Shown piece after piece: positions 3,635 to 61,875 of a stretch of 61,875 bases of DNA (positions are counted from its first letter, which is position 1; each line of letters begins with the position of its first letter). The DNA lies in UHGV virus genome UHGV-0856201, one strand, 5' to 3'. Source of the stretch: a virus. The position numbers and the translations under genes were made by a program. Under the pieces are notes generated by a model. It was given only the letters and a program-made list of their open reading frames with translations. It ran no database searches and was not told the origin of the DNA.

Positions 3635-4453
3635 ATGATGTTTGAACATCCGTGGAATATACCTGCATATGATGCTGAAAGTGAAAAACAATCACTTGAC
3701 TATCGAATGAAAACACAACAAGTAGACTGGAGTGAAGCGCCAGACTGGGCTACATGTGTTGTTCTTAATAAGACAACAAACACTTTTGCATGGTCTGACG
3801 GTTCAATGTACGCACCAATTTTAAGAAATCCACCACAAATTATGGAGAATGCTGATGACTTTGAAATCTTTGAAAAACGCTCTTGTGGTCCAGCAACACC
3901 TGTCAAAACAAAACTGTTAATGACACCGAAAGCCCGTGGTAATACTTACGAAGAATTCATTGCGACCGGGTGGAATGACGACCAGTTAGTCGAACATGGT
4001 TATGCTGTTCGCACCAATGATGAAATGACAAAATATAAACAACAGTCATTAGCAGACTTACACCTGGCGCATCTATTCACACCTGTTCAACAACCATCAA
4101 CAGTAACCCGTGCACCTAGACCAACACCACCTTCAAATTGTCGGTGTACATTCACACCTGTTCAACAACCATCAACAGCGTCTGACTTGCTGAAACAGGC
4201 TGAACAGCTACTGACTGAACGTGGTAAGCAGTACGACACGTCTGGTCAGGAACGTTCGTCAGCTAAAATCGTTGCTGCGTTTAACACAATTACCGGGCGC
4301 GACTTAACACCGGGTGAAGGGTGGTTGTTTCTGATGTTGTTAAAAGCGGTTCGTTTCTATTCCAACACTGAAACACTACATCGTGACAGTCTGGAAGACC
4401 TGATTAGCTACGCTGCATTACACGCAGAGGAATATCTTAACGATGAACGGTGA
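3635..4453 (+). CDS. hypothetical protein with internal direct repeat and conserved C-terminal domain
   Basis: 272 aa; repeat FTPVQQPST twice; motif TYEEFIATGWNDDQLVEHGYAV shared with ORF 33970-34881. Confidence 0.5.
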   Translation: MMFEHPWNIPAYDAESEKQSLDYRMKTQQVDWSEAPDWATCVVLNKTTNTFAWSDGSMYAPILRNPPQIMENADDFEIFEKRSCGPATPVKTKLLMTPKARGNTYEEFIATGWNDDQLVEHGYAVRTNDEMTKYKQQSLADLHLAHLFTPVQQPSTVTRAPRPTPPSNCRCTFTPVQQPSTASDLLKQAEQLLTERGKQYDTSGQERSSAKIVAAFNTITGRDLTPGEGWLFLMLLKAVRFYSNTETLHRDSLEDLISYAALHAEEYLNDER

Positions 4454-4625
4454 ACAGGCATTCGACCTTCTGGTTAAATACGACATTATTGTTATTCACT
4501 GTGACCGTGAACAAATCGTTTTCACAGACGATCTTCGTTATGAAGAACCTTATGACGGTGATAAACGGTCTGCCACGATTCGATTAATCGAACGTGTGGC
4601 ACGTGACAGAGGGGAACTATTATAA
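4443..4625 (+). CDS. hypothetical protein
   Basis: 60-aa ORF overlapping neighbours by a few nt (coupled). Confidence 0.35.
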   Translation: MNGEQAFDLLVKYDIIVIHCDREQIVFTDDLRYEEPYDGDKRSATIRLIERVARDRGELL

Positions 4626-4819
4626 TGGCTCAAACTATTTCTGAATTACTACCCACCGTTTATGGCAACGTGACAGAACTTGCCAGGCGGATTGGGTGTA
4701 ACAAAGCGACAGTTTATAAATATATGGATGACACCAACGGTGAATTTCACGCGGTGGTGAATGGTAAGTTGATGGTCAGACCAGGTTTTAAAGGACGTTA
4801 TACTCGTGACAAAAGATGA
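4625..4819 (+). CDS. small helix-turn-helix DNA-binding protein
   Basis: 64 aa; HTH-like segment TELARRIGCNKATVYKY. Confidence 0.45.
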   Translation: MAQTISELLPTVYGNVTELARRIGCNKATVYKYMDDTNGEFHAVVNGKLMVRPGFKGRYTRDKR

Positions 4820-4963
4820 AAAATTATTACGTGAACTTGAAATAGACTACGAACGAGCACAAAAAGCGTTACAGTTTCTGGAAGAACAGATCCGCGAAGT
4901 TAAGAACCGCATTCAGGGAACTGAAAAACGTAATCTTCCACGCCCGTAACACGTGATATAATC

Positions 4964-4992
4964 GGCCTCAGTGTGTTAACTGAGGCTTTTTT
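4964..4992 (+). terminator. rho-independent terminator
   Basis: hairpin ggcctcag...ctgaggc followed by TTTTTT. Confidence 0.7.
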
Positions 4993-5952
4993 ATGGCTAC
5001 TAAAGACCCATACCCGGATATTTCAGACAAGTATGACGCTCGCATTCGCGAAGCACTTGACGTTGTGTGGGAAAACGTGCGTCGTAGTGAGTCGTTAGCT
5101 AACCTGGAATACATCATTGAAACTCAGGGTATTGCCGGGCTACTCCCCATTCTTGAAACACTCCCTGATGAACTTAGTGCACAGTTGCGCCCGGTTATTG
5201 AAGACGCGATCGCCGAATCAGGTCGTGTAGTCGTTCAGGTTTTACCGAAAGCGGCTGTGACAGGTCCGGTTGTGTTCAGTCTGGTCACCCCACAGGTCAG
5301 TACATACATCAACAACTATGTCGGACAACTGATCCGTGAAGTCAGTGACGAAACAGTCAAAGCTGTTCAGATTGCTGTTAACCAGGGTGTGGTAACCGGA
5401 CGAAATCCGCGTCAGATAGCCCGTGATTTTCGATCATCAATAGGGTTAACCACACGGCAGGAAATGACGGTTCAACGTCTGCGATCAGCACTGGAAAAAG
5501 GTGAAGCAGGTTATGTGAACAGTCTGACCACTGTTACAGACAGTGCAAAGAACGCTGTAAGTGCCGGGAAACTATCACAGGCGAAGATTGACCAGATAAT
5601 CGAACAGACACGCTTGCGTTACGTAAAACAGCGTACAGAGACAATAGCGCGTACTGAATCACTTCGTGCTGTATCAGTTGGTCAGGATCAGGCAATACGT
5701 CAGGGACAGATTACCGGGGCTATTAGTAATGAATTGCTGAAGCGCTGGTTATATAGAAAGGATGGTCGGACACGTGATGCGCATATTTCCACGGGTGAAA
5801 CGAACGGTTGGATACCAATGGACAGACCGTTTTCAACGCCGTTAGGACCACTCATGTTTCCTCGTGATCCTAACGGTAGTGCCGCGAACGTGATTAATTG
5901 TCGTTGCAGGGTTGCTTATTCTCTCCCTCAAGATATAAATGTTATCCCGTGA
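4993..5952 (+). CDS. head morphogenesis protein (Mu F-like / SPP1 gp7-like)
   Basis: 319 aa; C-terminal NVINCRCRV motif and overall pattern typical of Mu-F family minor head proteins. Confidence 0.65.
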   Translation: MATKDPYPDISDKYDARIREALDVVWENVRRSESLANLEYIIETQGIAGLLPILETLPDELSAQLRPVIEDAIAESGRVVVQVLPKAAVTGPVVFSLVTPQVSTYINNYVGQLIREVSDETVKAVQIAVNQGVVTGRNPRQIARDFRSSIGLTTRQEMTVQRLRSALEKGEAGYVNSLTTVTDSAKNAVSAGKLSQAKIDQIIEQTRLRYVKQRTETIARTESLRAVSVGQDQAIRQGQITGAISNELLKRWLYRKDGRTRDAHISTGETNGWIPMDRPFSTPLGPLMFPRDPNGSAANVINCRCRVAYSLPQDINVIP

Positions 5953-18278: not shown

Positions 18279-18574
18279 TCGACTTCCTCTTGTGGAACGA
18301 TAAGACAGACGGGGACGACCTGGACTGGGTTACACAAGGGGCGGCTGCACGTGGTATATCTGTTCCGGTTGTTGTACAGAAACGTCCTGAATTGCGACCT
18401 GATGCTATCTTTTACTGGAATGCTTATTTGGATCTGATGGAAGCTGATTGGGTTGCTTGTGAGCGTTATGCACGGGTGTATAACGTTGATGTACAATTCT
18501 TGTGGAAATTATTGGTAGCATTGCGGTCTGCACGTGTTGTCGAGATGAAGAAAAATAAACAAAAGCCCGGTTAG
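17856..18574 (+). CDS. tail assembly chaperone frameshift product (G-T-like fusion via -1 frameshift)
   Basis: Zero-frame gaa aaa aac tga; -1 frame opens at 18275 and runs to 18574 (..LIDFLLWNDKTDGDD..). Confidence 0.5.
18269..18275 (+). other. -1 programmed frameshift slippery heptamer A_AAA_AAC
   Basis: Heptamer in X_XXY_YYZ register just before the G stop codon. Confidence 0.55.
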
Positions 18575-18588
18575 TTCCGGGCGTTTTC
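18564..18588. terminator. putative bidirectional terminator
   Basis: gcccggttagttccgggc then gttttc, between convergent genes. Confidence 0.45.
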
Positions 18589-19485
18589 ATTTATGTAGTC
18601 GAGGATTGCAGGAGAGTATTTAAACCACTCTGTAGCACCGTCAAAGCCTTTGAGACGCGCATTAAGTTCACGGAAGACCTTGTGTACCTCTTGTTCCAGT
18701 TTGTAAGCATCAGCGCCGTGTGGAAACAGGTACGACACGAGTTTAACCACTGGGTGTGTTGTTTCGCGTTGTAGTTGTCGTAGTCGCCGTTTTAAGTCGT
18801 TTGTGATACCGACTTTAAGCAGAGTAGGGCACTTTTTATCGTCAGCTAACACGTAGAGTGTACCGGGTTCTGACGGGTTAAAACCTGTTTGTGAACACTG
18901 AGGACAACCATGTTTTTTATGCAAATGCATGGCTGGACGTTGTTCAAACACTCCATGCTCTGGGCAGATGATTTTTATTCGAGTGAAATTGTTAATATAC
19001 GCCACCAACGAATAGTCGTAACGGTCCCCATGAACTTCGCGAGCACGAGTAATGAAATCTTCGGCGCCTAAGCGTTTTTGTTCAGACGACTGTTTACGAG
19101 CACATTGTGGGCAACCTTTCCCGTGAACATGATTGCCCGGTGTCTGTTCAAACACATCATGTATCGGACAGATAATCTTCACAGGTGTGCACCAATTCAC
19201 ATACTCCACCAGCGAATAGTCATACTTGTCACCATGAACTTCACGAGCACGAGTGATAAACTCTTCTGTGGTTAAACGTTTTTGTTCAACAGTACATTGG
19301 GTACAACCTGCTTTCATTGAAGTGTGATTGTTCGGAGTCTGTTCAAATACCCCGTGTTCGGGGCAGATAATTTTTACTTTGGTGTTAGCACCTTCATACT
19401 CCACTAGCGAGTAATCGTATTTGTGCCCATGAACTTCACGGGCACGCGTGATAAACTCTTCTGTGGTTAAACGTTTCCTACTCAT
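18571..19485 (-). CDS. T5orf172-domain protein with three Zn-ribbon repeats, paralog 3
   Basis: Three repeats of FITRAREVHGxKYDYSLV..KIICPEHGVFEQ; C-terminal GTLYVL..LKVGIT..GFDGATEWF. Confidence 0.65.
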   Translation of the reverse strand: MSRKRLTTEEFITRAREVHGHKYDYSLVEYEGANTKVKIICPEHGVFEQTPNNHTSMKAGCTQCTVEQKRLTTEEFITRAREVHGDKYDYSLVEYVNWCTPVKIICPIHDVFEQTPGNHVHGKGCPQCARKQSSEQKRLGAEDFITRAREVHGDRYDYSLVAYINNFTRIKIICPEHGVFEQRPAMHLHKKHGCPQCSQTGFNPSEPGTLYVLADDKKCPTLLKVGITNDLKRRLRQLQRETTHPVVKLVSYLFPHGADAYKLEQEVHKVFRELNARLKGFDGATEWFKYSPAILDYINENARN

Positions 19486-44076: not shown

Positions 44077-44844
44077 ATGAGCAACATTAACTCACTTCGC
44101 AAGCTATCTGATACCGATAAAACCAACGTAAAACGTGGTAACGCATATCGCATTGATCCGCGTATTATCAAGATTCGTCCAGGACATAACCCACGCGGTG
44201 TGTTTACCGACAACTACTGGGAAACTGAAGCAGCACTGACACACATTGAAAACTTTCGTCAGGCTTATACTAACGGTGATTTCGTTCCACCGATCGTGGT
44301 ACAGGTTGTTGACGGTGTTCCGTATGTTCAGGATGGTGAACATCGTTTACGTGGTGTATTGGCAGCTATTGAAGCCGGGACGCCGATTCTGACAGTAGAT
44401 GTTGTTGAATCGTCCGGTGACGAACTACAACAGACCCTGACACTGTTAAAAGGTAATGAAGGTAAACCGTGGTCGCCTGTTGAACGTGCTGTTATTTACG
44501 GTCGTTTCCGTTCATATGGGATGAGTGTTGAGCAGATCGCTACACAGGTTGGTAAAACCGTTCAGCATGTTTACGAACAACTGAATATTCTTGATATGCC
44601 GCTGGAACTTAAACGTCGTATTCAGAACGGTGAAATCAGCGCATCAGCAGCCATTCGCCAGTTTAAAGCAGGTGATAAAGAACCAATAATCACACGTCGC
44701 CCGCCTGCTAAACTGGTACGGTCTGCAGTGGAAGCAATCCGCGGTGAATGGTCTGTAACCCGTTCGGAAGGTGGTAAAGTCCTGGTTGAACTCACTGCTG
44801 AACAGTTCGAAGCGTTAAAAGCACTGAAGGATCACCAGTTATGA
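44077..44844 (+). CDS. ParB-like nuclease domain protein
   Basis: ParB N-terminal-like region (VDGVPYVQDGEHRLRGVLAA) plus HTH-like segment. Confidence 0.55.
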   Translation: MSNINSLRKLSDTDKTNVKRGNAYRIDPRIIKIRPGHNPRGVFTDNYWETEAALTHIENFRQAYTNGDFVPPIVVQVVDGVPYVQDGEHRLRGVLAAIEAGTPILTVDVVESSGDELQQTLTLLKGNEGKPWSPVERAVIYGRFRSYGMSVEQIATQVGKTVQHVYEQLNILDMPLELKRRIQNGEISASAAIRQFKAGDKEPIITRRPPAKLVRSAVEAIRGEWSVTRSEGGKVLVELTAEQFEALKALKDHQL

Positions 44845-46664: not shown

Positions 46665-47468
46665 TTATTGACCCATCATATCTTTATACATCATCAAAAC
46701 AACATCATCCGGCATATTATCTACATCGCAATGCGGGTTGTGTGATAACGCATACAACCTGATTTTCTCCTTCAAATCGCTGACATCGACTACAGGTGCT
46801 TCCACTCGTGCTACAGGTGCTTCCACTCGTGCTACAGGTGCTTCCACTCGTGCTACAGGTGCTTCCACTCGTGCTACAGGTGCTTCCACTCGTGCTACAG
46901 GTGCTTCACAAACCATCACGTTAAACGGTGTCCCGGTGTCTTCGTATTTTTCAAGCAAATCGACCATTACATTTACACATTCCGGGATCCATCCCCGGCG
47001 CAAACCATTCTGAATCCAACTGTCAGTAATTGTGTGTTCATTTAAATTCCTGCGTAACACGTATCTTGCACATTCAAAATTACCACACATCGCCTCAAAC
47101 CGTGTCCACACGTCGTGACCGTGAACAGCTTCCAGGATCTGTGAATCAACGTATCTGACACGTTGCCAGTAGTTATTAGCAAAACGCCTGTGTGGTAATT
47201 TCTGACGCAGTTCGGTAACCGGTATTGTGTGTTTAAGAACAATGTTTTCGTCAGAATGTTGTACTGACAAGGGTGACAGTGTGAAGTCAGTAATCTCTTC
47301 AAGAATAATACTGATCGTTTCATATTTAGGATGAAACCTACCGCTTAACCATTGGTTGTAACGACCAACAGTTACCTTAACACCTCGACGATTAAGGTAT
47401 TCAACAGCATTTTGTACCCCGCCTTTTAAATCTATCAATTCGTCTAAAAGGTTCTTTTTCATTATCAC
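46665..47468 (-). CDS. hypothetical protein with EAPVARV x6 repeat
   Basis: 267 aa; HTH-like N-terminus; adjacent to iteron-rich region. Confidence 0.5.
   Translation of the reverse strand: MIMKKNLLDELIDLKGGVQNAVEYLNRRGVKVTVGRYNQWLSGRFHPKYETISIILEEITDFTLSPLSVQHSDENIVLKHTIPVTELRQKLPHRRFANNYWQRVRYVDSQILEAVHGHDVWTRFEAMCGNFECARYVLRRNLNEHTITDSWIQNGLRRGWIPECVNVMVDLLEKYEDTGTPFNVMVCEAPVARVEAPVARVEAPVARVEAPVARVEAPVARVEAPVVDVSDLKEKIRLYALSHNPHCDVDNMPDDVVLMMYKDMMGQ
46788..46915 (-). repeat. 21-bp tandem repeat (6 units) inside CDS
   Basis: tccactcgtgctacaggtgct repeated head to tail. Confidence 0.9.
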
Positions 47469-48050: not shown

Positions 48051-48072
48051 AAAATTTATGGGAGACAAATTT

Positions 48073-48708
48073 ATGAAAATTTCAGACCGGGCTAAAAGGG
48101 CTGCTCTGGAGTTAACAACAGATCAACTCCGTTTCGCTAACCTGTGGTTAGATCGTGTCAATAACGGCTTCAGCAACGCTCAGTGCGTCTTACACGCTTA
48201 TCCGGGGCATAAAGACCCTGACGCAGCTAAAGTCACCGCACACCGCCTCCTGTCGAATACAAAGGTGTTGAACTATCTGGACGCGATGGGGAGTCATGCG
48301 CTTGAGTCTGTCGGGGAATCGTTAACGAGTCGTGTCGAGTGGTGGAAACGAGCGGCAAGCACGGCTGAAGAATTACTGGAACCGTATTGTCAGCGCGTTA
48401 TCGTCCCTGGCGAAGACGACACAGAAGCGAAACACCTGTGGGTGAACAGTACCGACGATATCCCCAGCCATCTGCAACAGTACGTAGTTTGCTACAAACG
48501 TTACATGCTGGGCGGATATATTCTGGTGACGCGTGAATTGTTCGATCCGAAAACTCGTGCAAAAGCGTCTGAACAACTGGATAAGATCACCGGGAACAGT
48601 ATCGACCGTGTGGAATTGTCTGGCGTGGTTGGTAACGTGGTTCAGAGTGTTCCTGAAGGTGCAACTATCGACGACATCGCGCAACTGTACCAGAAAGCAC
48701 TTAAATAA
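48073..48708 (+). CDS. terminase small subunit
   Basis: Start MKISDRAK; N-terminal DNA-binding-like region (LTTDQLRFANLW...NAQCVLHAY) resembles Terminase_2 family. Confidence 0.55.
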   Translation: MKISDRAKRAALELTTDQLRFANLWLDRVNNGFSNAQCVLHAYPGHKDPDAAKVTAHRLLSNTKVLNYLDAMGSHALESVGESLTSRVEWWKRAASTAEELLEPYCQRVIVPGEDDTEAKHLWVNSTDDIPSHLQQYVVCYKRYMLGGYILVTRELFDPKTRAKASEQLDKITGNSIDRVELSGVVGNVVQSVPEGATIDDIAQLYQKALK

Positions 48709-48826: not shown

Positions 48827-49033
48827 TTACTGTGCTACAACTTCAAAAACTGTCCGTTCTGTACCGTTATCAAAACGACCTAAAGCAAAACGACCATCTT
48901 CACGCTTGTGAACGTTCCATGCCAGACCCTGGTGATATACAATCATGTCATCAACATCCAGTGAAACAACAGCGCCGATTTTAAAAGCGCCTGACATCAT
49001 ATCTTTAGCGCGTTTGATTACTTTCAGTTCCAT
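48827..49033 (-). CDS. hypothetical protein
   Basis: 68-aa ORF at end of island operon. Confidence 0.35.
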   Translation of the reverse strand: MELKVIKRAKDMMSGAFKIGAVVSLDVDDMIVYHQGLAWNVHKREDGRFALGRFDNGTERTVFEVVAQ

Positions 49034-49059
49034 TTTTCAGTTCCTCACAATTCGTTGTC

Positions 49060-49112
49060 TATGTAAGTAATTTACACGTCCTTGTGTAATCCGTCAAGAA
49101 TTATTTTAAACT
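49060..49112 (-). promoter_or_regulatory. conserved phage early promoter (copy 11)
   Basis: ccgtcaagaattattttaaactg; -35 TTGACG 49092-49097 (minus). Confidence 0.6.
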
Positions 49113-49348
49113 GCAATTAACCAATCATCAGCTAAAATATCAGTTTGACTTGCAAGCCACGGAACAAACTTGTTATCGGCGGTTTTCATACCGATCCACG
49201 GGAGAGCATCCGGGGCTTCATACTCAAAGGCCACTTTGTCAGCGATGTCTGCTGGCACCAGTTTTAACCACATGCCTTTTCCATTCCACCCGGAACGGCA
49301 AACGCGCTTACCTTCTTTCATCATTGTAACTGCTTCGCCAAAATTCAT
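49106..49348 (-). CDS. DUF2829-family protein (Tad2-like, candidate anti-Thoeris sponge)
   Basis: Likely start MNFGEAVTMMKEGKRVCRSGWNGKGMWL; later KTADNKFVPWLASQTDILADDW; pattern matches my recollection of DUF2829. Confidence 0.55.
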   Translation of the reverse strand: MNFGEAVTMMKEGKRVCRSGWNGKGMWLKLVPADIADKVAFEYEAPDALPWIGMKTADNKFVPWLASQTDILADDWLIAV

Positions 49349-49349
49349 A

Positions 49350-49508
49350 CTATTCACCTTTTAAATATTCGTCATTACCTGCAACCCAGAAACGATCACC
49401 AACATCAGGTGACGATTCCCAGGGCATTTTTTCAGTTACTTCAATTTCAACTTCCCCGTGTTCATTACGGTTAATAATTTTCACGGGTACACCGTCATAG
49501 GTTTTCAT
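49350..49508 (-). CDS. small hypothetical protein (52 aa)
   Basis: [52 protein letters not shown]; coupled between rdgC and DUF2829 gene. Confidence 0.3.
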
Positions 49509-50419
49509 CGTTTCGCTTCCCCACCCAAAGCCGTGATAAGTTGTTTAATCAGCGCCTGAAGTTCACCTGTCATTAGTACAAAATCAGCGTCAAATCGTGC
49601 CAGTCCATCTTCAAGGTCAATATCGTCGTTCTGGTCGAGCAACCCGTCGCAGAATTTCACACGGTTTAACGTCATGCTGTCAGTTAGTGTAAACGTTACC
49701 CGCTGCTGCCAGTCCATCGCCAGCTTTGTAACGACTTTCCCTGCTTCAATATGTGTGGCTATTTCATCACTGGTTAAATCCTGTTTTTTAACGCGTGCAA
49801 CACCGCCATCAGTCAGGATCGCTTTCAGTTCCGCAGAATCACCCATTGTAAAACCTGTTGGCGCGTTTCCTGAACGTACCCACTCCGTTGTTGTCAGTTC
49901 AACAGGGTTTTCCATCGTCAGCGGGACGACTGGCAGACTACCCAGGGATTTACGCAACAGCGCTAACGCATCTTCAGCCCGTTTAGCACTGGGCGCATCA
50001 ACCACGATCAACCCGCTAGTGATATCAATCCACAACTGTGTACGACTGTTTTTAACGAACGCCCGTGGTAACAGACTGTGCAACACTTCGTCTTTCAGCG
50101 CGTCTTTCTCTGTTTTCTTCAGCTTACGCGCCTGTTCAGTTTCCAGTTTGGCGATTCGCGCGTTCAGATGCTGTTTAATGACCGGACCAGGAATAATCTT
50201 TTCCTGTTTCTGGATGGTCAGCAGATATTGCCCGTTAGCCTGGTGAACCAGTGTATAATGTTGTTCGGTTGCCGGAACCCAACCAGTACGCGCCATATCC
50301 TGTGAACCGCAAGGATTGAATTGAAACGTACACAAGCTGTCTTCCAGCGTTGGCAACTGGGTCATTAATGCCATCGGGTTGGTCAGACGATAAATAATAG
50401 CGTTTTTAAAGAAGTTCAT
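49505..50419 (-). CDS. rdgC: recombination-associated protein RdgC homolog
   Basis: Full-length collinear similarity to E. coli RdgC ([79 protein letters not shown]). Confidence 0.85.
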
Positions 50420-50496
50420 AGTTGTTTTCCTGTTTAATTTATGAATGAGATAATCAACCGTTTTGGTTTACTTTTCACATAATCAACCAAAGCATT

Positions 50497-50730
50497 TCAT
50501 TTCCGGTTCCTTCTTTTCTTCGCCTCGCATCGGGCTTTTGCAATACTTGTTTTACGATGTGGTTGTTTACGGCCAGTAATAAGTCGTTGTGGTGGAACAC
50601 CCCATAAAGTATTGTTCAGACCATAATTATCTGCCGAATAATACAAACCGTTGGCGGTGATAATTACATTCGGATCGTACACAGTAACTTTCCGAAAACA
50701 GTTGATAATTGTTGTTTTCGTACTCATCAT
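50497..50730 (-). CDS. hypothetical protein
   Basis: 77 aa with basic C-terminus. Confidence 0.35.
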   Translation of the reverse strand: MMSTKTTIINCFRKVTVYDPNVIITANGLYYSADNYGLNNTLWGVPPQRLITGRKQPHRKTSIAKARCEAKKRRNRK

Positions 50731-50993
50731 ACGTTCACCACTTTTAAATCAGGTGTCAGACTACGATGGTCATGATGACCGTTCATAGTAAATGAGAAAG
50801 TGTAATTGCACTGTTCATCGTTGAACGTGAAGGGGGTTTGAAACCCTGTATCGTCAGCGATGCGAACTTTAACCGGGTATTCAGCTTGCGGATCGACTGC
50901 TACAACAGTACCAAACGGTTTAGATTTGCGACGTGCGAGAATTTCTAACAATCGTGGACTGGTGATTTCTACGTGTTGACCAGTTTTAAACAT
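50727..50993 (-). CDS. hypothetical protein
   Basis: Start MFKTGQHV with RBS ggag, first gene after promoter copy 12. Confidence 0.4.
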   Translation of the reverse strand: MFKTGQHVEITSPRLLEILARRKSKPFGTVVAVDPQAEYPVKVRIADDTGFQTPFTFNDEQCNYTFSFTMNGHHDHRSLTPDLKVVNV

Positions 50994-51014
50994 GGTAATA
51001 ACTCCAGTTGTTTT

Positions 51015-51066
51015 ACACAAACTGAAGTCTATCTGACAATGCGTAAACCGTCAAGAATTATTTTAA
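51015..51066 (-). promoter_or_regulatory. conserved phage early promoter (copy 12)
   Basis: ccgtcaagaattattttaaactg; -35 TTGACG 51049-51054 (minus); -10 tagact. Confidence 0.6.
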
Positions 51067-51235
51067 ACTGTCCGTCACTGCCTGCAGCGTAACAAATACC
51101 GTGACTGTAGATTGTCGCAGTTCGTGTAATGCGTTGATAGTCTGAGCATTGGTTACGAATACGCAGGTCATACCCGGACTGTATAATCAGCCAGGTTGCA
51201 ATGATGGCGAGTAATTTTAAAACGTATCTGAACAT
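51029..51235 (-). CDS. small hydrophobic protein (uncertain)
   Basis: MFRYVLKLLAIIATWLII with RBS aggag; 3' end overlaps promoter copy 12. Confidence 0.3.
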   Translation of the reverse strand: MFRYVLKLLAIIATWLIIQSGYDLRIRNQCSDYQRITRTATIYSHGICYAAGSDGQFKIILDGLRIVR

Positions 51236-51296
51236 GTTCCACACTCCTGTTTGATAGTTTCAGGGTAGTGTGGAACTGGTGAAGATGGTATAGGAT

Positions 51297-51695
51297 TTAC
51301 GATAATTTAACAGTTAACCCGGCGTTGGTCAGAACGTTAGCGACATCGCGCACACCAGCTTCATATCCGTCTATAGGTGTTGCGGATGATTTAATACAAA
51401 TGCCAGTATGCTTTGGTAATTCAATTACCAACTGTTCCCGGCTGGCTTTCCACATGTCCCACGCGCGATTCAAACGATCGCCTTCTTCCACGGTGTACTC
51501 GTCATCTTTCCTTAATTTTTCTAAGACGTTTTTTGGTGTTCCGTATTTGTCTGAATAACACGCTTCAAACTGTTCACGACTCTTATCCACTTTTTCAACC
51601 CTCCACCCATATTTGGCACGATTCATAGCGGTCCGTTCATCATTCGTGGTGAACAGTACGTACCCGGATTTATGACAAATGTTCCAAGTCGTCAT
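51297..51695 (-). CDS. hypothetical protein
   Basis: 132-aa ORF. Confidence 0.4.
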   Translation of the reverse strand: MTTWNICHKSGYVLFTTNDERTAMNRAKYGWRVEKVDKSREQFEACYSDKYGTPKNVLEKLRKDDEYTVEEGDRLNRAWDMWKASREQLVIELPKHTGICIKSSATPIDGYEAGVRDVANVLTNAGLTVKLS

Positions 51696-51747
51696 TTCGC
51701 TAATACACCAATAATGAAAATTAGCATGTAGAATAAAACATTACGGG

Positions 51748-51906
51748 TCATAATTTATAAACCTTAAAATTACCGCCTGAATAGCGATGTTTACCACACA
51801 ACTTACAACGGTGTTCCTGAGTGGCGTAATTACGTTCATCACCGTGGGTAGTACGATATAAATACCATTCGTGTTTACAGAATAATCGTTTGAGAAATAT
51901 CTTCAT
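51748..51906 (-). CDS. small zinc-ribbon protein (52 aa)
   Basis: MKIFLKRLFCKHEW...HRCKLCGKHRY; two Cys pairs; below ORF-track cutoff. Confidence 0.3.
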   Translation of the reverse strand: MKIFLKRLFCKHEWYLYRTTHGDERNYATQEHRCKLCGKHRYSGGNFKVYKL

Positions 51907-51909
51907 AGT

Positions 51910-52140
51910 TCAATAACCCCTCCTCGACTGGTAATCAATTTTCTTCAGTGATTGTTGCACAATCTGCCAGGACGACAACATGAATAATTGCGCGTATTGC
52001 CCCAGTGCTAAATTTCGTGGTTTATCCTGATAAGCGTAAATCGTTGCAACGTCATCACCATTTAAACGGATCCGCCACGGTGTCAGAGTTGGTTTATCAC
52101 CCATGTTCGACGCGCTCCAGTAGTTCACGAATGTTTTCAA
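51910..52140 (-). CDS. hypothetical protein
   Basis: 76-aa ORF. Confidence 0.35.
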   Translation of the reverse strand: MKTFVNYWSASNMGDKPTLTPWRIRLNGDDVATIYAYQDKPRNLALGQYAQLFMLSSWQIVQQSLKKIDYQSRRGY

Positions 52141-52420
52141 TTACACGTTGTTTTGTCTGAGTAGTGACACATGCACCATCGGTACGCCCAAAAGTTTCTA
52201 ACACGGTTTGAAGTGCTTGATACATTTCAGGACTGTTTAACATTAATGACAGGTTACCCCGGAGTTCCTGGAGTTTTTCTTGTTCTTCGTTTGGTAAGTA
52301 ACAAGGGTCTTCCATTTTAATAACCACTTGCGCGATTGCCCCGTGGTCTGGTGATGAAATGCTCACATGATTTTCAACCCACCCTTCATCTTTAAACCAC
52401 GGTAATTGTGAACATTTCAT
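52097..52420 (-). CDS. hypothetical protein
   Basis: Start at MKCSQLPW (52420) preferred over upstream Met. Confidence 0.4.
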   Translation of the reverse strand: MKCSQLPWFKDEGWVENHVSISSPDHGAIAQVVIKMEDPCYLPNEEQEKLQELRGNLSLMLNSPEMYQALQTVLETFGRTDGACVTTQTKQRVIENIRELLERVEHG

Positions 52421-52527
52421 AATATTTACCTTTTTGTTTAGTGACAAGATATCTCTTCAACCCGACATGCACCAAAATCTTTAAGTTCATTTTTAGTAAT
52501 TTTCATTCTGTATAACCCTCTGTTCAT

Positions 52528-52639: not shown

Positions 52640-52692
52640 GATAACCAGATTCTAGTTGTTCACCTGTAATCTGTCAAGAATTATTTTAAATC
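52640..52692 (-). promoter_or_regulatory. conserved phage early promoter (copy 13)
   Basis: ctgtcaagaattattttaaatc; -35 TTGACA 52673-52678 (minus); -10 tagaat. Confidence 0.6.
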
Positions 52693-52753: not shown

Positions 52754-54517
52754 ATGAATAAGTTTACTGGAAATATTCATAATTACCCGCGCTGGCGTGA
52801 TGCCTACGCAAACGACGAACGTATCTGGCGAAAAGGTCAGCCACGACCGGATTACAAACAGTGTTACATTGACCGTATTAACCTGTTAAATCGTATGCGC
52901 ACGGATCGGGCAATTGTCCCGGTACTGAAAAAGTATTACGAAACAAACCCTGTAGCGTTCATTCTCGACTGGGCGTTTACTTATGACCCGCGTAACGTTG
53001 GTACTGAATACCCGCCAAACATGCCTTTCTGCCTTTTCGAACGTCAAATCGACATGGTTCAGTTTGTTTACGAAGCGCTTGAAGACAAAGAAAAGGGGCT
53101 TTGGGAAAAATCGCGAGATTATGGTGCGACCTGGGTAGCCTGTGGTTTGTCCGTGTGGGCGTGGTTGTATCGTCCTGGTTCGTCAGTCGGCTGGGGTTCA
53201 CGTAAAGAACAGCTTGTCGATAAACTGGGTGACCCGGATAGTATTTTTGAAAAGATTCGCCAGATTATCCGCGCATTACCACCGGAATTACGTCCTATTA
53301 GTCTGCGTGAAAAAGACCATCTGGTTTACACGAAATGTATCAACCCTGAAAACGGTGCGACAATTACTGGTGAAGCTGGCGATAACATCGGTCGTGGTGG
53401 TCGTAAATCTGTTTATTTTTTGGACGAAGCAGCACACGTAGATCGTCCTGAACTGATTGAAGCGTCGTTGTCAGCTAACACCAACGTTCGAATTGATATC
53501 AGTTCCGTTAACGGTGTTGGTAACGTTTTTTATCGCAACCGTAAAGCTGGTCTGGAATGGGAACCTGGCAAGAAATTACCCCGTGGTAAATTGCGTGTCA
53601 TGGTTCTGGACTGGCGTGATCACCCGGCTAAAGACGACGAATGGTATAAACGAGAAAAACAATCGTTCGCTGAAAAGGGTTTACAGCATATTTTCGCACA
53701 GGAAGTTGACCGCGATTATGCAGCTGCTGTCCAGGGTGTACTGATTAAAGCTGAATGGGTACGTGCTGCTTTTGACGCTTTCCGTGACACAGAATGGCGC
53801 AAAGCTAACGGACTACTTACACCAACAGGTCAACGTATCGCCGGACAGGACGCAGCAGACGGTGGTGAAGACGCAAGCGCACTGGTAATTGCTCACGGTG
53901 TATTCCTGACACATCTGCAACTTGACCACAGAGGCGCTGAACTGGCTGCACCAGGGATGTTGACGATGGCTAATATGCTGGGTGTTGATGAATACTGGTA
54001 CGAAGTTAACGGTGTTGGTACAGGCGTTAAAGTAGCGGCAAACGACCGGAAAGATACTTTACGCTTCCGTGTGCGCCCGTGGTTACCGAATGGAAAAGTT
54101 GTGGATCCGGGTGGTGATATTATTGGTGGTACAAAACCTGGTGACAAAGACCGTAAATCAAACAAAGATTATTTCTCAAATTATAAAGCACAAGCATCGT
54201 GGGCGTTACGCCTGCGTTGTCAGCGAATTTATAAATGGTATGTGGAAGGTCAACCACAGGATCCGGACGAAATCATTCTGATTGATCCGTCACTGGAAAA
54301 CGCACAACGGTTAGAAGCTGAGTTAAGTCAGCCAACGTATACCAGTAACGGTGCCGGGAAGATTGTGATCGACAAGAAACCAAACGGAAGTAAGTCACCA
54401 AACTTTTTCGATGCTGCGGTTATTGCACTATCACCAAAACGCACTGAATTTGTCGAAGAACCATTTACTGGTGGTGTGAACCCTGTTGGTACTCCTGAAT
54501 ACGGTGACATTTTTTAA
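52754..54517 (+). CDS. terminase large subunit
   Basis: 587 aa; Walker B-like VYFLDEAAH; size and position before portal; followed by strong terminator. Confidence 0.65.
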   Translation: MNKFTGNIHNYPRWRDAYANDERIWRKGQPRPDYKQCYIDRINLLNRMRTDRAIVPVLKKYYETNPVAFILDWAFTYDPRNVGTEYPPNMPFCLFERQIDMVQFVYEALEDKEKGLWEKSRDYGATWVACGLSVWAWLYRPGSSVGWGSRKEQLVDKLGDPDSIFEKIRQIIRALPPELRPISLREKDHLVYTKCINPENGATITGEAGDNIGRGGRKSVYFLDEAAHVDRPELIEASLSANTNVRIDISSVNGVGNVFYRNRKAGLEWEPGKKLPRGKLRVMVLDWRDHPAKDDEWYKREKQSFAEKGLQHIFAQEVDRDYAAAVQGVLIKAEWVRAAFDAFRDTEWRKANGLLTPTGQRIAGQDAADGGEDASALVIAHGVFLTHLQLDHRGAELAAPGMLTMANMLGVDEYWYEVNGVGTGVKVAANDRKDTLRFRVRPWLPNGKVVDPGGDIIGGTKPGDKDRKSNKDYFSNYKAQASWALRLRCQRIYKWYVEGQPQDPDEIILIDPSLENAQRLEAELSQPTYTSNGAGKIVIDKKPNGSKSPNFFDAAVIALSPKRTEFVEEPFTGGVNPVGTPEYGDIF

Positions 54518-60187: not shown

Positions 60188-60287
60188 NNNNNNNNNNNNN
60201 NNNNNNNNNNNNNNNNNNNNNNNNNNNNNNNNNNNNNNNNNNNNNNNNNNNNNNNNNNNNNNNNNNNNNNNNNNNNNNNNNNNNNNN
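60188..60287. other. 100-N scaffold gap
   Basis: Run of exactly 100 N. Confidence 1.
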
Positions 60288-60414
60288 CGTGAATTGTTCG
60301 ATCCGAAAACTCGTGCAAAAGCGTCTGAACAACTGGATAAGATCACCGGGAACAGTATCGACCGTGTGGAATTGTCTGGCGTGGTTGGTAACGTGGTTCA
60401 GAGTGTTCCTGAAG
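60288..60414. repeat. 127-bp exact repeat of phage 48532-48658 (inside terS)
   Basis: Identical to terS internal segment; diverges into anellovirus sequence at 60415. Confidence 0.9.
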
Positions 60415-61454
60415 ACAAACAACAACTAGAGCAACACGCAGGAAACCCTTTTACATCAGAATATTTAACTAATCCAGAAGGACTATTCACAAGCACAAAA
60501 GACCCTACAAACTTTTTTCTACAATTTACAGAAAAAACACAAGCACTTGAAACACATAAAACAACATTAAACTACAATCACCTACAACACCCATTAATAT
60601 TAGAAACAAGATACAATCCAAATAAAGACCAAGGCCTACATAACAAAGCATATGTACTACCAGTAAACAAACCAGGAGTTAACTGGACACCACCAAATGA
60701 TGAAGACTTAATATTAGAAGGATTTCCAATATGGTTACTAATATTTGGATTTATAGACTACATTAAAAAAACTCAAAAGCTAATTAATGTAGACGAAAAA
60801 CATGTACTATGCATACAAACATCTAACACAAACCCAAAATGGGACCAACCTATTATACCACTCTCATATACATTTGAAGAAGGACACAGCCCTTACAGCA
60901 AACAATTAAACCCATATGACACAGACAAATGGTATCCACAAATACAATACCAAGAAGAAGCCATAAATGATATTATAAAATGTGGACCAGGAACAGCTAA
61001 AATAGGAGACAGACTTAGTGAAGAGATTAAATGTGAATATGAATTTTATTGGAAATGGGGAGGACATCCACCTAAAATGCTAACTATAGACAATCCTGCA
61101 CAACAGGGAACATATCCCATACCCCGTAACAGCATCACATCAAATTCGTTACAGAATCCAGCAACACCACCAGAGTACTTCTTATACAGCTTCGACGAAA
61201 GACAGGGACTGCTTACAAAAACAGCTGCAAAAAGAATTAGAAAAGACTGGGAATCTAAAGACTATGTATCTGACTTTACAGAATCAACAAAAGAAGTCCC
61301 AATGCAAACACTCCAAACATCATCCGACGAAACATCGGACTCGGAAAAAGAAGAGGAGACACTACTCCAGCAGCTCCACCGACAGCAACAGCACCAGAAG
61401 CAGCTCAAGCGCCGAATTCTCAGATTAATGCAGAAAAATCCAAATTTAGAATAA
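60415..61454 (+). CDS. Anellovirus ORF1 C-terminal portion (partial)
   Basis: A-rich, Thr/Asn/Lys-rich ORF ending in Ser/Glu-rich and basic tail; composition matches 510-1619. Confidence 0.65.
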
Positions 61455-61658
61455 TACAATGTACTCAATATGTTAAACTGTTTGATGATAAAACTGTAAA
61501 AAATAGACGCATGAATAAGTATGAAATGGAACATGAAAAAGATGTAGCTAAAGCCTTTTGTAGACCACCAAAAAAATTCTTACTTGATGTACCATACTAC
61601 CCATGGGTAGACATCCCAGAACCACTTGTAAACTTTCACCTGAGATATAACTTTGATG

Positions 61659-61664
61659 AATAAA
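61659..61664 (+). promoter_or_regulatory. polyadenylation signal (AATAAA)
   Basis: aataaa ~200 nt downstream of ORF1 stop, as in anelloviruses. Confidence 0.5.
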
Positions 61665-61749
61665 CAAGGCCAACAATATTCACTTAGTGGTGTCAGTTTA
61701 TATAAGTTAAAACCTAAATAAACATCCGTTACCAATTGAAATTTGTTGG

Positions 61750-61840
61750 CGCCAAAAGGGGGCTCCGCCCCCTTTAACCCCCAAGGGGGCTCCGCCCCCT
61801 TAAACCCCCAAAGGGGGCTCCGCCCCCTTAAACCCCCGGA
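61750..61840. repeat. Anellovirus GC-rich region with three ~27-bp repeats
   Basis: gggggctccgccccc at 61758, 61785 and 61813, each followed by ttaaaccccc. Confidence 0.8.
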
Positions 61841-61875
61841 AACCACAAAATTTGCATTGCCGACCACAAACGAAC

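What the first reader, a model, noticed from the sequence alone, without database searches (positions are those of the whole stretch)
49505..50419. Phage-encoded RdgC with near-host-like sequence
The 304-aa protein is collinear with E. coli RdgC over its whole length, with many identical blocks, indicating relatively recent capture from an enterobacterial host. RdgC binds DNA and modulates RecA, so a phage copy could tune host recombination or protect phage DNA ends. It also points to an Enterobacteriaceae host.
Basis: partly seen in the sequence, partly recalled or inferred. Interest (0 to 1): 0.5.

Follow-up and report, generated by a model that had tools for sequence, protein, structure and literature searches.

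The report
Phage RdgC gene, long resident
The gene is a real, intact phage copy of the bacterial DNA-binding protein RdgC, but it is an old, already-annotated accessory gene of this phage group rather than a recent theft from the E. coli host, so it is ordinary.

Summary
The ORF at 49505-50419 (minus strand, 304 aa) is real and is a full-length RdgC (Pfam PF04381, E=2.6e-114; PDB 2OWL, E=6.6e-127). All ten mutationally tested E. coli residues are identical, and dN/dS within the phage clade is 0.15-0.20, so the protein is probably functional.

"Near-host-like" and "recent capture" are not supported.
- Identity to E. coli RdgC is 65% (amino acid) and 64% (nucleotide), and synonymous sites are saturated.
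- The protein is equally distant (62-67%) from every Enterobacterales chromosomal RdgC sampled, whereas E. coli's own RdgC is 70-93% identical to them.
- In bootstrapped NJ trees the phage clade is monophyletic (100%). It never joins E. coli to the exclusion of Salmonella. Its nearest neighbours are other phage or prophage copies in 99.8% of replicates.
- The gene occupies the same terS-terL cassette in E. coli, Salmonella and Klebsiella relatives (17 of 24 database genomes). Its divergence tracks that of TerL. Carvaje retains only a truncated remnant.

The window is a 9NA/Sasha-like E. coli siphophage. The likely role is a ring-shaped DNA binder that restrains RecA early in infection; this is inferred, not shown. 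The gene is already annotated in relatives, so interest is low.

The parts
49505..50419 (-). rdgC coding sequence, 304 aa, full-length RdgC-family protein
   Evidence: ORF; Pfam PF04381 E=2.6e-114; NCBIfam NF001462 at 411.9 bits, above the 330 cutoff; PHROG 724; PDB 2OWL E=6.6e-127; tested residues conserved and dN/dS 0.15-0.20
50420..50496 (-). 77-nt intergenic leader with an AGGA Shine-Dalgarno-like motif 8 nt upstream of the rdgC ATG
   Evidence: read directly from the sequence
49350..49508 (-). 52-aa ORF whose ATG overlaps the rdgC stop codon (ATGA), suggesting translational coupling; function unknown
   Evidence: no Pfam or PHROG hit; homologues in Carvaje and in a metagenomic relative only
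48827..52447 (-). Leftward accessory-gene cassette of 11 ORFs between terS and terL; rdgC is its largest and most widely shared gene; the gene content is mosaic among relatives
52649..52677 (-). Near-consensus sigma-70 promoter-like site (TTGACA-17-TAGAAT, 11 of 12 matches) upstream of the first cassette ORF; a candidate early promoter
   Evidence: consensus scan only; not evidence of function
48058..48708 (+). Small terminase subunit gene, the left boundary of the cassette
   Evidence: weak Pfam Terminase_2 hit; annotated terS at the equivalent position in Sasha, AVIO78A and Bas82
52754..54517 (+). Large terminase subunit gene, the right boundary of the cassette; used as the backbone marker for the phage group
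   Evidence: 99.5% identical to TerL of AVIO78A, PJ16 and PDP46

Best explanation
This is an intact RdgC-family gene that has long been carried by the 9NA/Sasha-like virulent siphophages of E. coli, Salmonella and Klebsiella. It is a frequently retained accessory gene in the leftward cassette between terS and terL. It belongs to a mobile-element lineage of RdgC (phages, prophages, P1 HrdC) that is distinct from the chromosomal Enterobacterales orthologues and evolves faster than them. It is not a recent host acquisition.

[quoted passage not shown] The basic finger should load the ring onto DNA, and DNA should be held non-specifically in a basic pore.

The most likely role is inferred rather than shown. 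Expressed from the cassette, probably early, it would coat or clamp DNA and so limit RecFOR/RecA filament function on phage replication and packaging intermediates, and limit RecA-dependent SOS signalling. The gene is dispensable: several relatives lack it, and P1 hrdC is non-essential.

Confidence is split. Identity as a functional RdgC and long residence in the phage group: about 0.95. The specific RecA-antagonist role during infection: about 0.45.
For: Identity
- Full-length Pfam, NCBIfam, PHROG and PDB matches.
- All 10 residues shown by mutagenesis to matter in E. coli RdgC are identical in the window protein: fingertip R97/K98/K100/K101, gate R118/F120, horseshoe Q212/E218/H222/K227. Six of them are invariant in all 16 clade members; K98 is K or R and R97 is C in one member (residues taken from PMC2965237).
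- All 8 DNA-binding positions tested in P. aeruginosa RdgC remain basic (PMC1885664).
- Purifying selection: dN/dS is 0.15-0.20 against AVIO78A and Bas82.

Long residence in the phage group
- Clade monophyly has 100% bootstrap support.
- The gene sits at the same terS-terL locus in Bas82, AVIO78A, SP-062, a Salmonella-assembly contig, and a metagenomic relative at 78% identity.
- RdgC identity falls in step with TerL identity across E. coli, Salmonella and Klebsiella phages (Spearman 0.95).
- Carvaje retains only a remnant covering residues 202-304.

Not host-derived recently
- dS is saturated.
- 0 of 5,426 E. coli genomes carry a match covering 80% or more of the gene.
- The protein is equidistant from all Enterobacterales sampled.
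- Its sister group consists only of mobile-element copies in 99.8% of 500 bootstraps. Those copies lie next to CI-like repressors and lambda O/P-like replication genes.

Expression
- An SD-like motif, an ATGA overlap with the next ORF, and a near-consensus promoter upstream of the cassette.

Function of the family
- RdgC binds DNA non-specifically, counters RecFOR-mediated RecA loading, and inhibits RecA strand exchange (PMC2965237).
Against: No experiment on any phage RdgC was found in the searchable literature, so the RecA-antagonist role rests only on homology to the E. coli protein.

The N-terminal 74 residues are much more diverged (44% identity to E. coli) than in comparably diverged chromosomal pairs (63-75%). 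Partner interactions or specificity may therefore differ.

The gene is dispensable in nature: it is absent from the whole genomes of Sasha and 9NA.

Early expression is inferred from a consensus promoter match only.

The basal placement of the mobile-element lineage comes from NJ on 304 columns with one distant outgroup. Chromosomal monophyly has only 58% bootstrap support, and the phage lineage evolves faster (distance to outgroup 1.09 versus 0.88). An old origin from inside the Enterobacterales cannot be excluded.

The AlphaFold model had low confidence (mean pLDDT 48.7), so the fold was not confirmed independently.
Confidence: 0.6

Rival explanations
1. One reading: the gene was captured relatively recently from the E. 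coli or Enterobacteriaceae host chromosome and still looks host-like.
For: Full-length collinearity with 65% identity and long identical blocks. GC3 of the gene (0.49) lies between the phage backbone (0.39 +/- 0.05) and the host gene (0.59).
Against: - dS is saturated and third-position identity is 46%.
- The best E. coli DNA match is 71% over 77% of the gene, and no genome of 5,426 covers 80% or more.
- Enterobacteriaceae orthologues are 85-93% identical to each other, against 63-67% to the phage protein.
- 0 of 500 bootstraps place the clade with E. coli to the exclusion of Salmonella, and only 0.8% nest it inside a group that excludes Serratia.
- The gene is conserved, syntenic and co-diverging across phages of three host genera.
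Confidence: 0.03
2. The protein is a conflict factor rather than a recombination modulator: either a counter-defence or host-takeover protein, or a RexA-like exclusion or switch protein. It would use the RdgC DNA-binding ring to blunt or trigger an immune pathway.
For: - It lies in a mosaic accessory cassette that in this window also carries a Tad2-like Thoeris anti-defence gene (E=2.8e-26) and a Gp54 'antiviral trigger' homologue (E=3.4e-18).
- Lambda RexA is a structural relative of RdgC (PMC11077077).
- Some lambdoid phages carry RdgC next to cI, and a RexA-like role has been suggested for it (PMC12315714).
- The N-terminal domain is unusually diverged in this clade and in P1 HrdC.
Against: - The Tad2-like and Gp54-like genes are absent from all 8 relatives compared, so the association is not conserved.
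- No RexB-like or other recognisable partner is adjacent.
- The residues needed for the canonical E. coli function are all intact.
- Bas82, which carries this rdgC, is still sensitive to RM systems and to Old (PMC11990801).
Confidence: 0.2
3. The protein mainly protects or organises phage DNA. It would bind ends and duplex DNA, shielding it from RecBCD or other nucleases in a Gam-like way, or act as a nucleoid-associated protein that compacts replicating or packaging DNA.
For: E. coli RdgC is nucleoid-associated, binds duplex DNA non-specifically, has increased affinity for DNA ends, and bends DNA (PMC2965237; PMC1885664). The gene sits between the two terminase genes. No RecBCD inhibitor was recognised among the proteins scanned.
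Against: No evidence that RdgC blocks RecBCD. Proximity to the terminase genes reflects a divergently oriented cassette, not an operon shared with them. Relatives without the gene are viable.
Confidence: 0.15
4. It is an exonuclease, as annotated in several relatives and in the Pfam and PHROG family names.
For: Database labels only: 'exonuclease', 'RdgC exonuclease', 'putative exonuclease, RdgC'.
Against: No nuclease activity could be detected for E. coli RdgC (PMC1885664). The family is a DNA-binding ring with no catalytic motif described. The label is a legacy name.
Confidence: 0.02

Closest known systems
RdgC of Escherichia phages vB_EcoS_AVIO78A, PJ16, PDP46, KarinMuster (Bas82) and Sashavirus BDX09P1; Salmonella phages Sergei, Solent, SP069 and FSL SP-062; Klebsiella phages Kpn BU9, VLCpiS10a, KP13-27 and phi_270
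   Same: The same gene at the same terS-terL locus, 76-95% amino-acid identity, already annotated as RdgC, recombination-associated protein or exonuclease.
   Different: It is an allele: 95% identical to the closest relatives (AVIO78A and BDX09P1). The genes immediately downstream differ: a 52-aa ORF and a Tad2-like gene here, an unrelated 111-aa protein in AVIO78A and Bas82.
Escherichia coli RdgC (PDB 2OWL), the chromosomal recombination-associated DNA-binding ring
   Same: Same length and collinear, 65% identity. All mutationally defined finger, gate and horseshoe residues are identical, and the pore residues are basic.
   Different: The window protein falls below the NCBIfam NF001460 cutoff (466.6 versus 501). 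It lies outside the chromosomal clade. Its N-terminal 74 residues are only 44% identical. It is phage-borne in an accessory cassette, not in the mak-rdgC chromosomal context.
Phage P1 HrdC and RdgC homologues of temperate phages and prophages (Tbat2_3, KpF5, PdC23; second copies in Serratia, Edwardsiella and Pectobacterium genomes)
   Same: The same mobile-element branch of the family. These are the nearest neighbours of the Sasha-like clade in 99.8% of bootstraps, and P1 HrdC shares the diverged N-terminal region. P1 hrdC was scored non-essential by CRISPRi (PMC10695390).
   Different: Only 58-66% identical. They lie in replication or immunity regions of temperate elements, next to O/P-like genes or CI-like repressors, whereas this one is in a virulent-type siphophage between the terminase genes.
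Lambda RexA
   Different: No detectable sequence similarity was reported. RexA lacks the tip (finger) domain and works with RexB. No RexB-like neighbour is present here.

Membership tests
RdgC family (Pfam PF04381 / NCBIfam PRK00321) | Full-length match to the family profile above the curated threshold | tested here: met
   PF04381 at 382 bits against a cutoff of 25, covering profile positions 2-298 of 298. NF001462 at 411.9 bits against a cutoff of 330.
RdgC family (Pfam PF04381 / NCBIfam PRK00321) | End-to-end homology with the solved RdgC structures | tested here: met
   2owl_A E=6.6e-127 over residues 2-304; 2owy_A E=1.6e-65 over residues 3-301.
RdgC family (Pfam PF04381 / NCBIfam PRK00321) | Basic fingertip needed for loading onto circular DNA (E. 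coli R97, K98, K100, K101) | tested here: met
   Window R98, K99, K101 and K102 are identical to E. coli. K100 and K101 are invariant in the 16-member clade; K98 is K or R; R97 is C in one member (PMC2965237).
RdgC family (Pfam PF04381 / NCBIfam PRK00321) | Gate interface residues R118 and F120 | tested here: met
   Window R119 and F121; 16 of 16 in the clade.
RdgC family (Pfam PF04381 / NCBIfam PRK00321) | Horseshoe interface network Q212, E218, H222, K227 | tested here: met
   Window Q213, E219, H223 and K228; 16 of 16 in the clade.
RdgC family (Pfam PF04381 / NCBIfam PRK00321) | Basic residues lining the central pore (P. aeruginosa R4, K70, R81, R122, K146, R198, R208, R252) | tested here: met
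   All eight positions are K or R in the window protein (PMC1885664).
RdgC family (Pfam PF04381 / NCBIfam PRK00321) | [quoted passage not shown] | tested here: inconclusive
   The AlphaFold2 monomer model had mean pLDDT 48.7 from a shallow alignment, so no fold search was run. The fold is inferred from 65% identity to 2OWL. The dimer cannot be modelled with these tools.
RdgC family (Pfam PF04381 / NCBIfam PRK00321) | Non-specific DNA binding and inhibition of RecA function | not testable with these tools
   Biochemical and genetic properties. Known only for the E. coli, Neisseria and P. aeruginosa proteins.
Chromosomal Enterobacteriaceae RdgC orthologue / recent host-derived copy | Score above the cutoff of the best-matching equivalog model NF001460 | tested here: not met
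   466.6 bits against a cutoff of 501.
Chromosomal Enterobacteriaceae RdgC orthologue / recent host-derived copy | Groups inside the chromosomal Enterobacteriaceae clade, closest to the host genus | tested here: not met
   62-67% identity to all Enterobacterales sampled. 0% of bootstraps place it with E. coli to the exclusion of Salmonella, and 0.8% nest it excluding Serratia.
Chromosomal Enterobacteriaceae RdgC orthologue / recent host-derived copy | Unsaturated synonymous divergence from the host gene | tested here: not met
   dS is 1.6 (LWL85) to 3.1 (NG86), and third-position identity is 46%.
RexA/RexB-type exclusion module | Paired with a RexB-like membrane partner, or located next to the repressor gene | tested here: not met
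   The ten neighbouring cassette ORFs give only Tad2-like and Gp54 Pfam hits, with no RexB and no repressor.

The most novel reading that the evidence does not exclude
Mobile-element RdgCs, including this one and P1 HrdC, may form a functionally distinct branch. Their conserved DNA-ring core, combined with a re-modelled N-terminal centre domain, could serve as an early anti-RecA/anti-SOS or counter-defence factor. This would be analogous to PsiB in plasmid leading regions, and it would explain why these genes recur in accessory and anti-defence hotspots of virulent and temperate phages.
Probability: 0.2. Interest if true: 0.5.

Novelty: already known. Interest (0 to 1): 0.15.

Why it matters
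As it stands, it matters little. The gene is already annotated in at least 17 related phage genomes, and RdgC homologues occur in about 510 phage records.

The useful outcome is corrective. High collinearity with a host protein does not mean recent capture, and the 'exonuclease' label on these genes is a legacy error.

A modest open question remains: what do phage-borne RdgCs do? No experimental study was found. The clade is abundant, under purifying selection, repeatedly lost, and has a distinctive N-terminal region. The question is tractable, because Bas82 (KarinMuster) is in the public BASEL collection.

Tried and rejected
- Structure prediction. AlphaFold2 on a 30-sequence alignment gave mean pLDDT 48.7 and pTM 0.35, because the alignment was too shallow (64-94% identity). 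I did not run a fold search on it.
- Biopython NJ with bootstraps timed out. I replaced it with a numpy NJ.
- My first residue mapping was shifted by one, because I had dropped alignment columns. I redid it on the full alignment.
- The pattern-based genome scan missed E. coli, Salmonella and Klebsiella, because its peptide patterns were phage-specific. I obtained those sequences with a second protein search.
- Mak synteny as a marker of the chromosomal locus works only for part of the order (44 loci), so I did not use it as a general classifier.
- The anti-defence neighbourhood as evidence for RdgC function: rejected as weak, because the Tad2-like and Gp54-like genes are absent from all 8 relatives compared.
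- Literature searches for experimental work on phage RdgC found none. Moore 2003 and Zeng 2019 were not in the held library.
- A circular wrap of the window was tested and not found. The extra length is chimeric anellovirus sequence instead.

Full report
**1. Observation**

The ORF list shows an ATG-initiated ORF of 304 aa at 49505..50419 on the minus strand, exactly as reported. An AGGA motif lies 8 nt upstream of the ATG. The TGA stop overlaps the ATG of the next ORF in an ATGA junction.

The protein matches the relevant libraries over its whole length:
- Pfam RdgC (PF04381): E=2.6e-114, 382 bits, profile positions 2-298 of 298.
- NCBIfam RdgC models: NF001462 scores 411.9 bits against a cutoff of 330. 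The best-scoring model, NF001460, scores 466.6 bits, which is below its cutoff of 501.
- PHROG 724.
- The two solved RdgC structures: E. coli 2OWL at E=6.6e-127 and P. aeruginosa 2OWY at E=1.6e-65.

A global alignment with K-12-type E. coli RdgC gives 199 identities in 305 columns (65%) with two small indels. The title phrase 'near-host-like' is not.

**2. What the window is**

The gene and the large terminase identify the window as a 9NA/Sasha-like siphophage of E. coli. TerL is 99.1-99.5% identical to those of AVIO78A, PJ16, PDP46, BDX09P1 and KarinMuster/Bas82. rdgC is 89.5-93.9% identical to theirs at the DNA level.

rdgC lies in a leftward cassette of 11 ORFs (52447 to 48827). The cassette sits between the rightward terS (48058-48708) and terL (52754-54517) genes. 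A near-consensus sigma-70 promoter-like site (TTGACA-17-TAGAAT) lies just upstream of the cassette.

**3. Is it a recent capture from the host? No.**

(a) Against E. coli rdgC, nucleotide identity is 64% and third-position identity is 46%. Only 98 of 199 identical residues use the same codon. dS is saturated (1.6 by LWL85, 3.1 by NG86) and dN is 0.30.

(b) In 5,426 complete E. coli genomes, the best DNA match is 71% identity over 77% of the gene. No genome has a match covering 80% or more.

(c) Chromosomal RdgC is strongly conserved. Identity to E. coli is 93% for Salmonella, 91% for Klebsiella and Citrobacter, 85-86% for Cronobacter, about 82% for Serratia, 74% for Edwardsiella and 70-72% for Providencia. 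The phage protein is 62-67% identical to all of them, with no preference for Escherichia.

(d) I built an NJ tree of 108 sequences on 304 columns, rooted with P. aeruginosa RdgC.
- The Sasha-like clade has 100% bootstrap support, and all 80 chromosomal Enterobacterales sequences form a separate group with 58% support.
- In 500 replicates, the phage clade joins E. coli to the exclusion of Salmonella in 0%.
- It nests with E. coli to the exclusion of Serratia in 0.8%, and to the exclusion of Providencia in 14%.
- Its nearest neighbours are exclusively other mobile-element copies in 99.8%. These are Tbat2_3, KpF5, PdC23, P1 HrdC, and second copies in Serratia, Edwardsiella, Pectobacterium and Brenneria genomes.
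- The second copies tested lie next to CI-like repressors and lambda O/P-like replication genes, so they are in prophages.

Caveats: the method is NJ with a single distant outgroup. The phage lineage is also faster-evolving (distance to the outgroup 1.09 versus 0.88). An old origin from within the Enterobacterales followed by acceleration cannot be excluded. A recent origin can.

**4. Is it a conserved gene of the phage group? Largely yes.**

Of 24 database records with TerL at least 86% identical, 17 carry rdgC at 76-95% amino-acid identity. These phages infect E. coli, Salmonella and Klebsiella.

The best 120 hits listed from the 5.8-billion-protein collection were all 78-94% identical, and all sit on contigs of at most about 61 kb.

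The locus is the same in Bas82, AVIO78A, SP-062, a 57-kb contig in a Salmonella assembly, and a metagenomic relative at 78% identity. RdgC identity declines in step with TerL identity (Spearman 0.95 over 13 phages; the points are not phylogenetically independent).

The gene is not strictly core:
- Sasha has only three small genes in the cassette, and no RdgC anywhere in its genome.
- 9NA has nine small genes in the cassette, and no RdgC anywhere in its genome.
- 536P12 is absent from the rdgC hit list, but I did not check it directly.
- Carvaje keeps only a 5'-truncated remnant covering residues 202-304 at 83% identity.

The simplest reading is ancestral presence with repeated loss. The cassette is otherwise mosaic.

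**5. Is it functional, and how would it work?**

Within the clade, dN/dS is 0.15-0.20.

All ten residues whose mutation impairs E. coli RdgC are identical in the window protein (PMC2965237). They are the fingertip residues R97, K98, K100 and K101, the gate residues R118 and F120, and the horseshoe residues Q212, E218, H222 and K227. The eight DNA-binding positions mutated in P. aeruginosa RdgC are all K or R (PMC1885664). Of 104 columns invariant among the 80 chromosomal sequences, 95 carry the same residue in the window protein.

By homology, the protein should be a toroidal dimer that loads onto DNA through its basic finger and holds DNA in a basic pore. E. coli RdgC counters RecFOR-mediated RecA loading and inhibits RecA strand exchange (PMC2965237). 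It has no detectable nuclease activity and has increased affinity for DNA ends (PMC1885664). The 'exonuclease' label on the phage genes is therefore a legacy name.

The most likely role in the phage is to limit RecA function on phage DNA, and RecA-dependent signalling, early in infection. This step is inferred. I found no experimental study of any phage RdgC. P1 hrdC was scored non-essential by CRISPRi (PMC10695390).

The phage encodes its own DNA polymerase, Enc34-type SSB, DUF2800/PD-(D/E)XK nuclease, SF2 helicase, 3'-5' exonuclease and primase. No recombinase was recognised among the proteins scanned.

**6. A feature worth recording**

Divergence from the chromosomal type is concentrated in the N-terminal 74 residues. 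These are 44% identical to E. coli, against 63-75% for comparably diverged chromosomal pairs. The finger (85%) and base (69%) regions are as conserved as between chromosomal orthologues. P1 HrdC shows the same pattern. This could reflect a changed interaction surface in mobile-element RdgCs, and it is the basis of the 'novel case' reading.

**7. Rivals**

A counter-defence or RexA-like role is suggested by three things:
- the Tad2-like (PF11195, E=2.8e-26) and Gp54-like (PF25180, E=3.4e-18) genes just downstream;
- the structural kinship of RexA with RdgC (PMC11077077);
- a published suggestion for lambdoid RdgCs (PMC12315714).

However, those two neighbours are absent from all eight relatives compared. 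Bas82 remains sensitive to RM systems and to Old (PMC11990801).

End protection or nucleoid-protein roles are compatible with the known biochemistry but are untested.

**8. Comparison and novelty**

The gene is an allele (95% identical) of an already annotated gene in AVIO78A, BDX09P1 and their relatives. It belongs to a family present in about 510 phage records. Verdict: already known and ordinary.

**9. Failed or discarded steps**

The AlphaFold model had low confidence (pLDDT 48.7) and was not used. Other dead ends are listed under Tried and rejected.

Noticed in passing
window 60188-61875 and 1-1679: The window is a chimeric scaffold. A run of 107 N (60188-60294) is followed by a duplicated terS fragment (60295 to about 60414, 98.4% identical to Sasha terS). 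That fragment is fused in frame to the C-terminal part of an anellovirus (torque teno-like) ORF1 (Pfam TT_ORF1, E=2e-39). The N-terminal part of ORF1 lies at 510-1619 (E=4.8e-79). Phage homology resumes only at 1680. This is most likely an assembly or scaffolding artefact in a virome dataset.
   Followed up: partly
window 49106-49357 (-): An 83-aa ORF two genes downstream of rdgC is a Tad2-like Thoeris anti-defence protein (PF11195, E=2.8e-26, 92 bits). It is absent from the 8 relatives compared.
   Followed up: partly
window 48827-49033 (-): A 68-aa ORF matches Pfam PF25180, 'Phage antiviral trigger protein Gp54' (E=3.4e-18). It is also unique to this window among the relatives compared.
   Followed up: partly
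window 18571-19485 (-): A 304-aa ORF with T5orf172/MUG113 and DUF723 domains (homing-endonuclease-like) lies on the opposite strand inside the tail-gene region. It is probably a mobile endonuclease insertion.
   Followed up: no
window 46665-47468 (-): A 267-aa ORF contains six tandem copies of the heptad VEAPVAR. It corresponds to the 'direct tandem repeat region' gene (gp81) annotated in Sasha. No Pfam hit.
   Followed up: no
L091 (Klebsiella phage Carvaje) 2683-2991: Carvaje carries only a 5'-truncated rdgC remnant (residues 202-304, 83% identity), annotated as a 110-aa 'RdgC exonuclease'. It is a snapshot of gene decay in the same cassette.
   Followed up: yes
L008, L067, L070, L080 (Serratia, Pectobacterium and Brenneria second copies), about 3989-5137: The longest ORFs through these prophage-borne RdgC copies are 377-382 aa, against the usual ~303 aa. 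Since the RdgC match begins near the ORF start, this suggests a C-terminal extension of about 75 aa. Its nature was not examined.
   Followed up: no
L094 (GCA_008687945.1 SQUZ01000012.1, 57,208 bp); P0035, P0037, P0039, P0041, P0051, P0058, P0111: Several proteins labelled 'Salmonella enterica' sit on contigs of about 16-59 kb (most 53-59 kb). The one contig examined (L094) has the 9NA/Sasha-like phage layout, so whole-phage contigs occur in isolate assemblies. Together with the ParB-like gene (window 44077-44844), this raises the possibility of carrier-state or episomal persistence, or simply of phage contamination of cultures.
   Followed up: no
L003 ('Vagococcus sp. WN89Y') and L024 ('Pseudomonas lundensis I31'): These records carry rdgC genes typical of Enterobacteriaceae (91% identical to E. 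coli, with mak synteny) and of Serratia respectively. This suggests mislabelled or contaminated assemblies.
   Followed up: no
window 49505-50419 (-), residues 1-74: The N-terminal centre-domain segment is disproportionately diverged from chromosomal RdgC (44% identity, against 63-75% in comparably diverged chromosomal pairs). P1 HrdC shares this pattern.
   Followed up: partly
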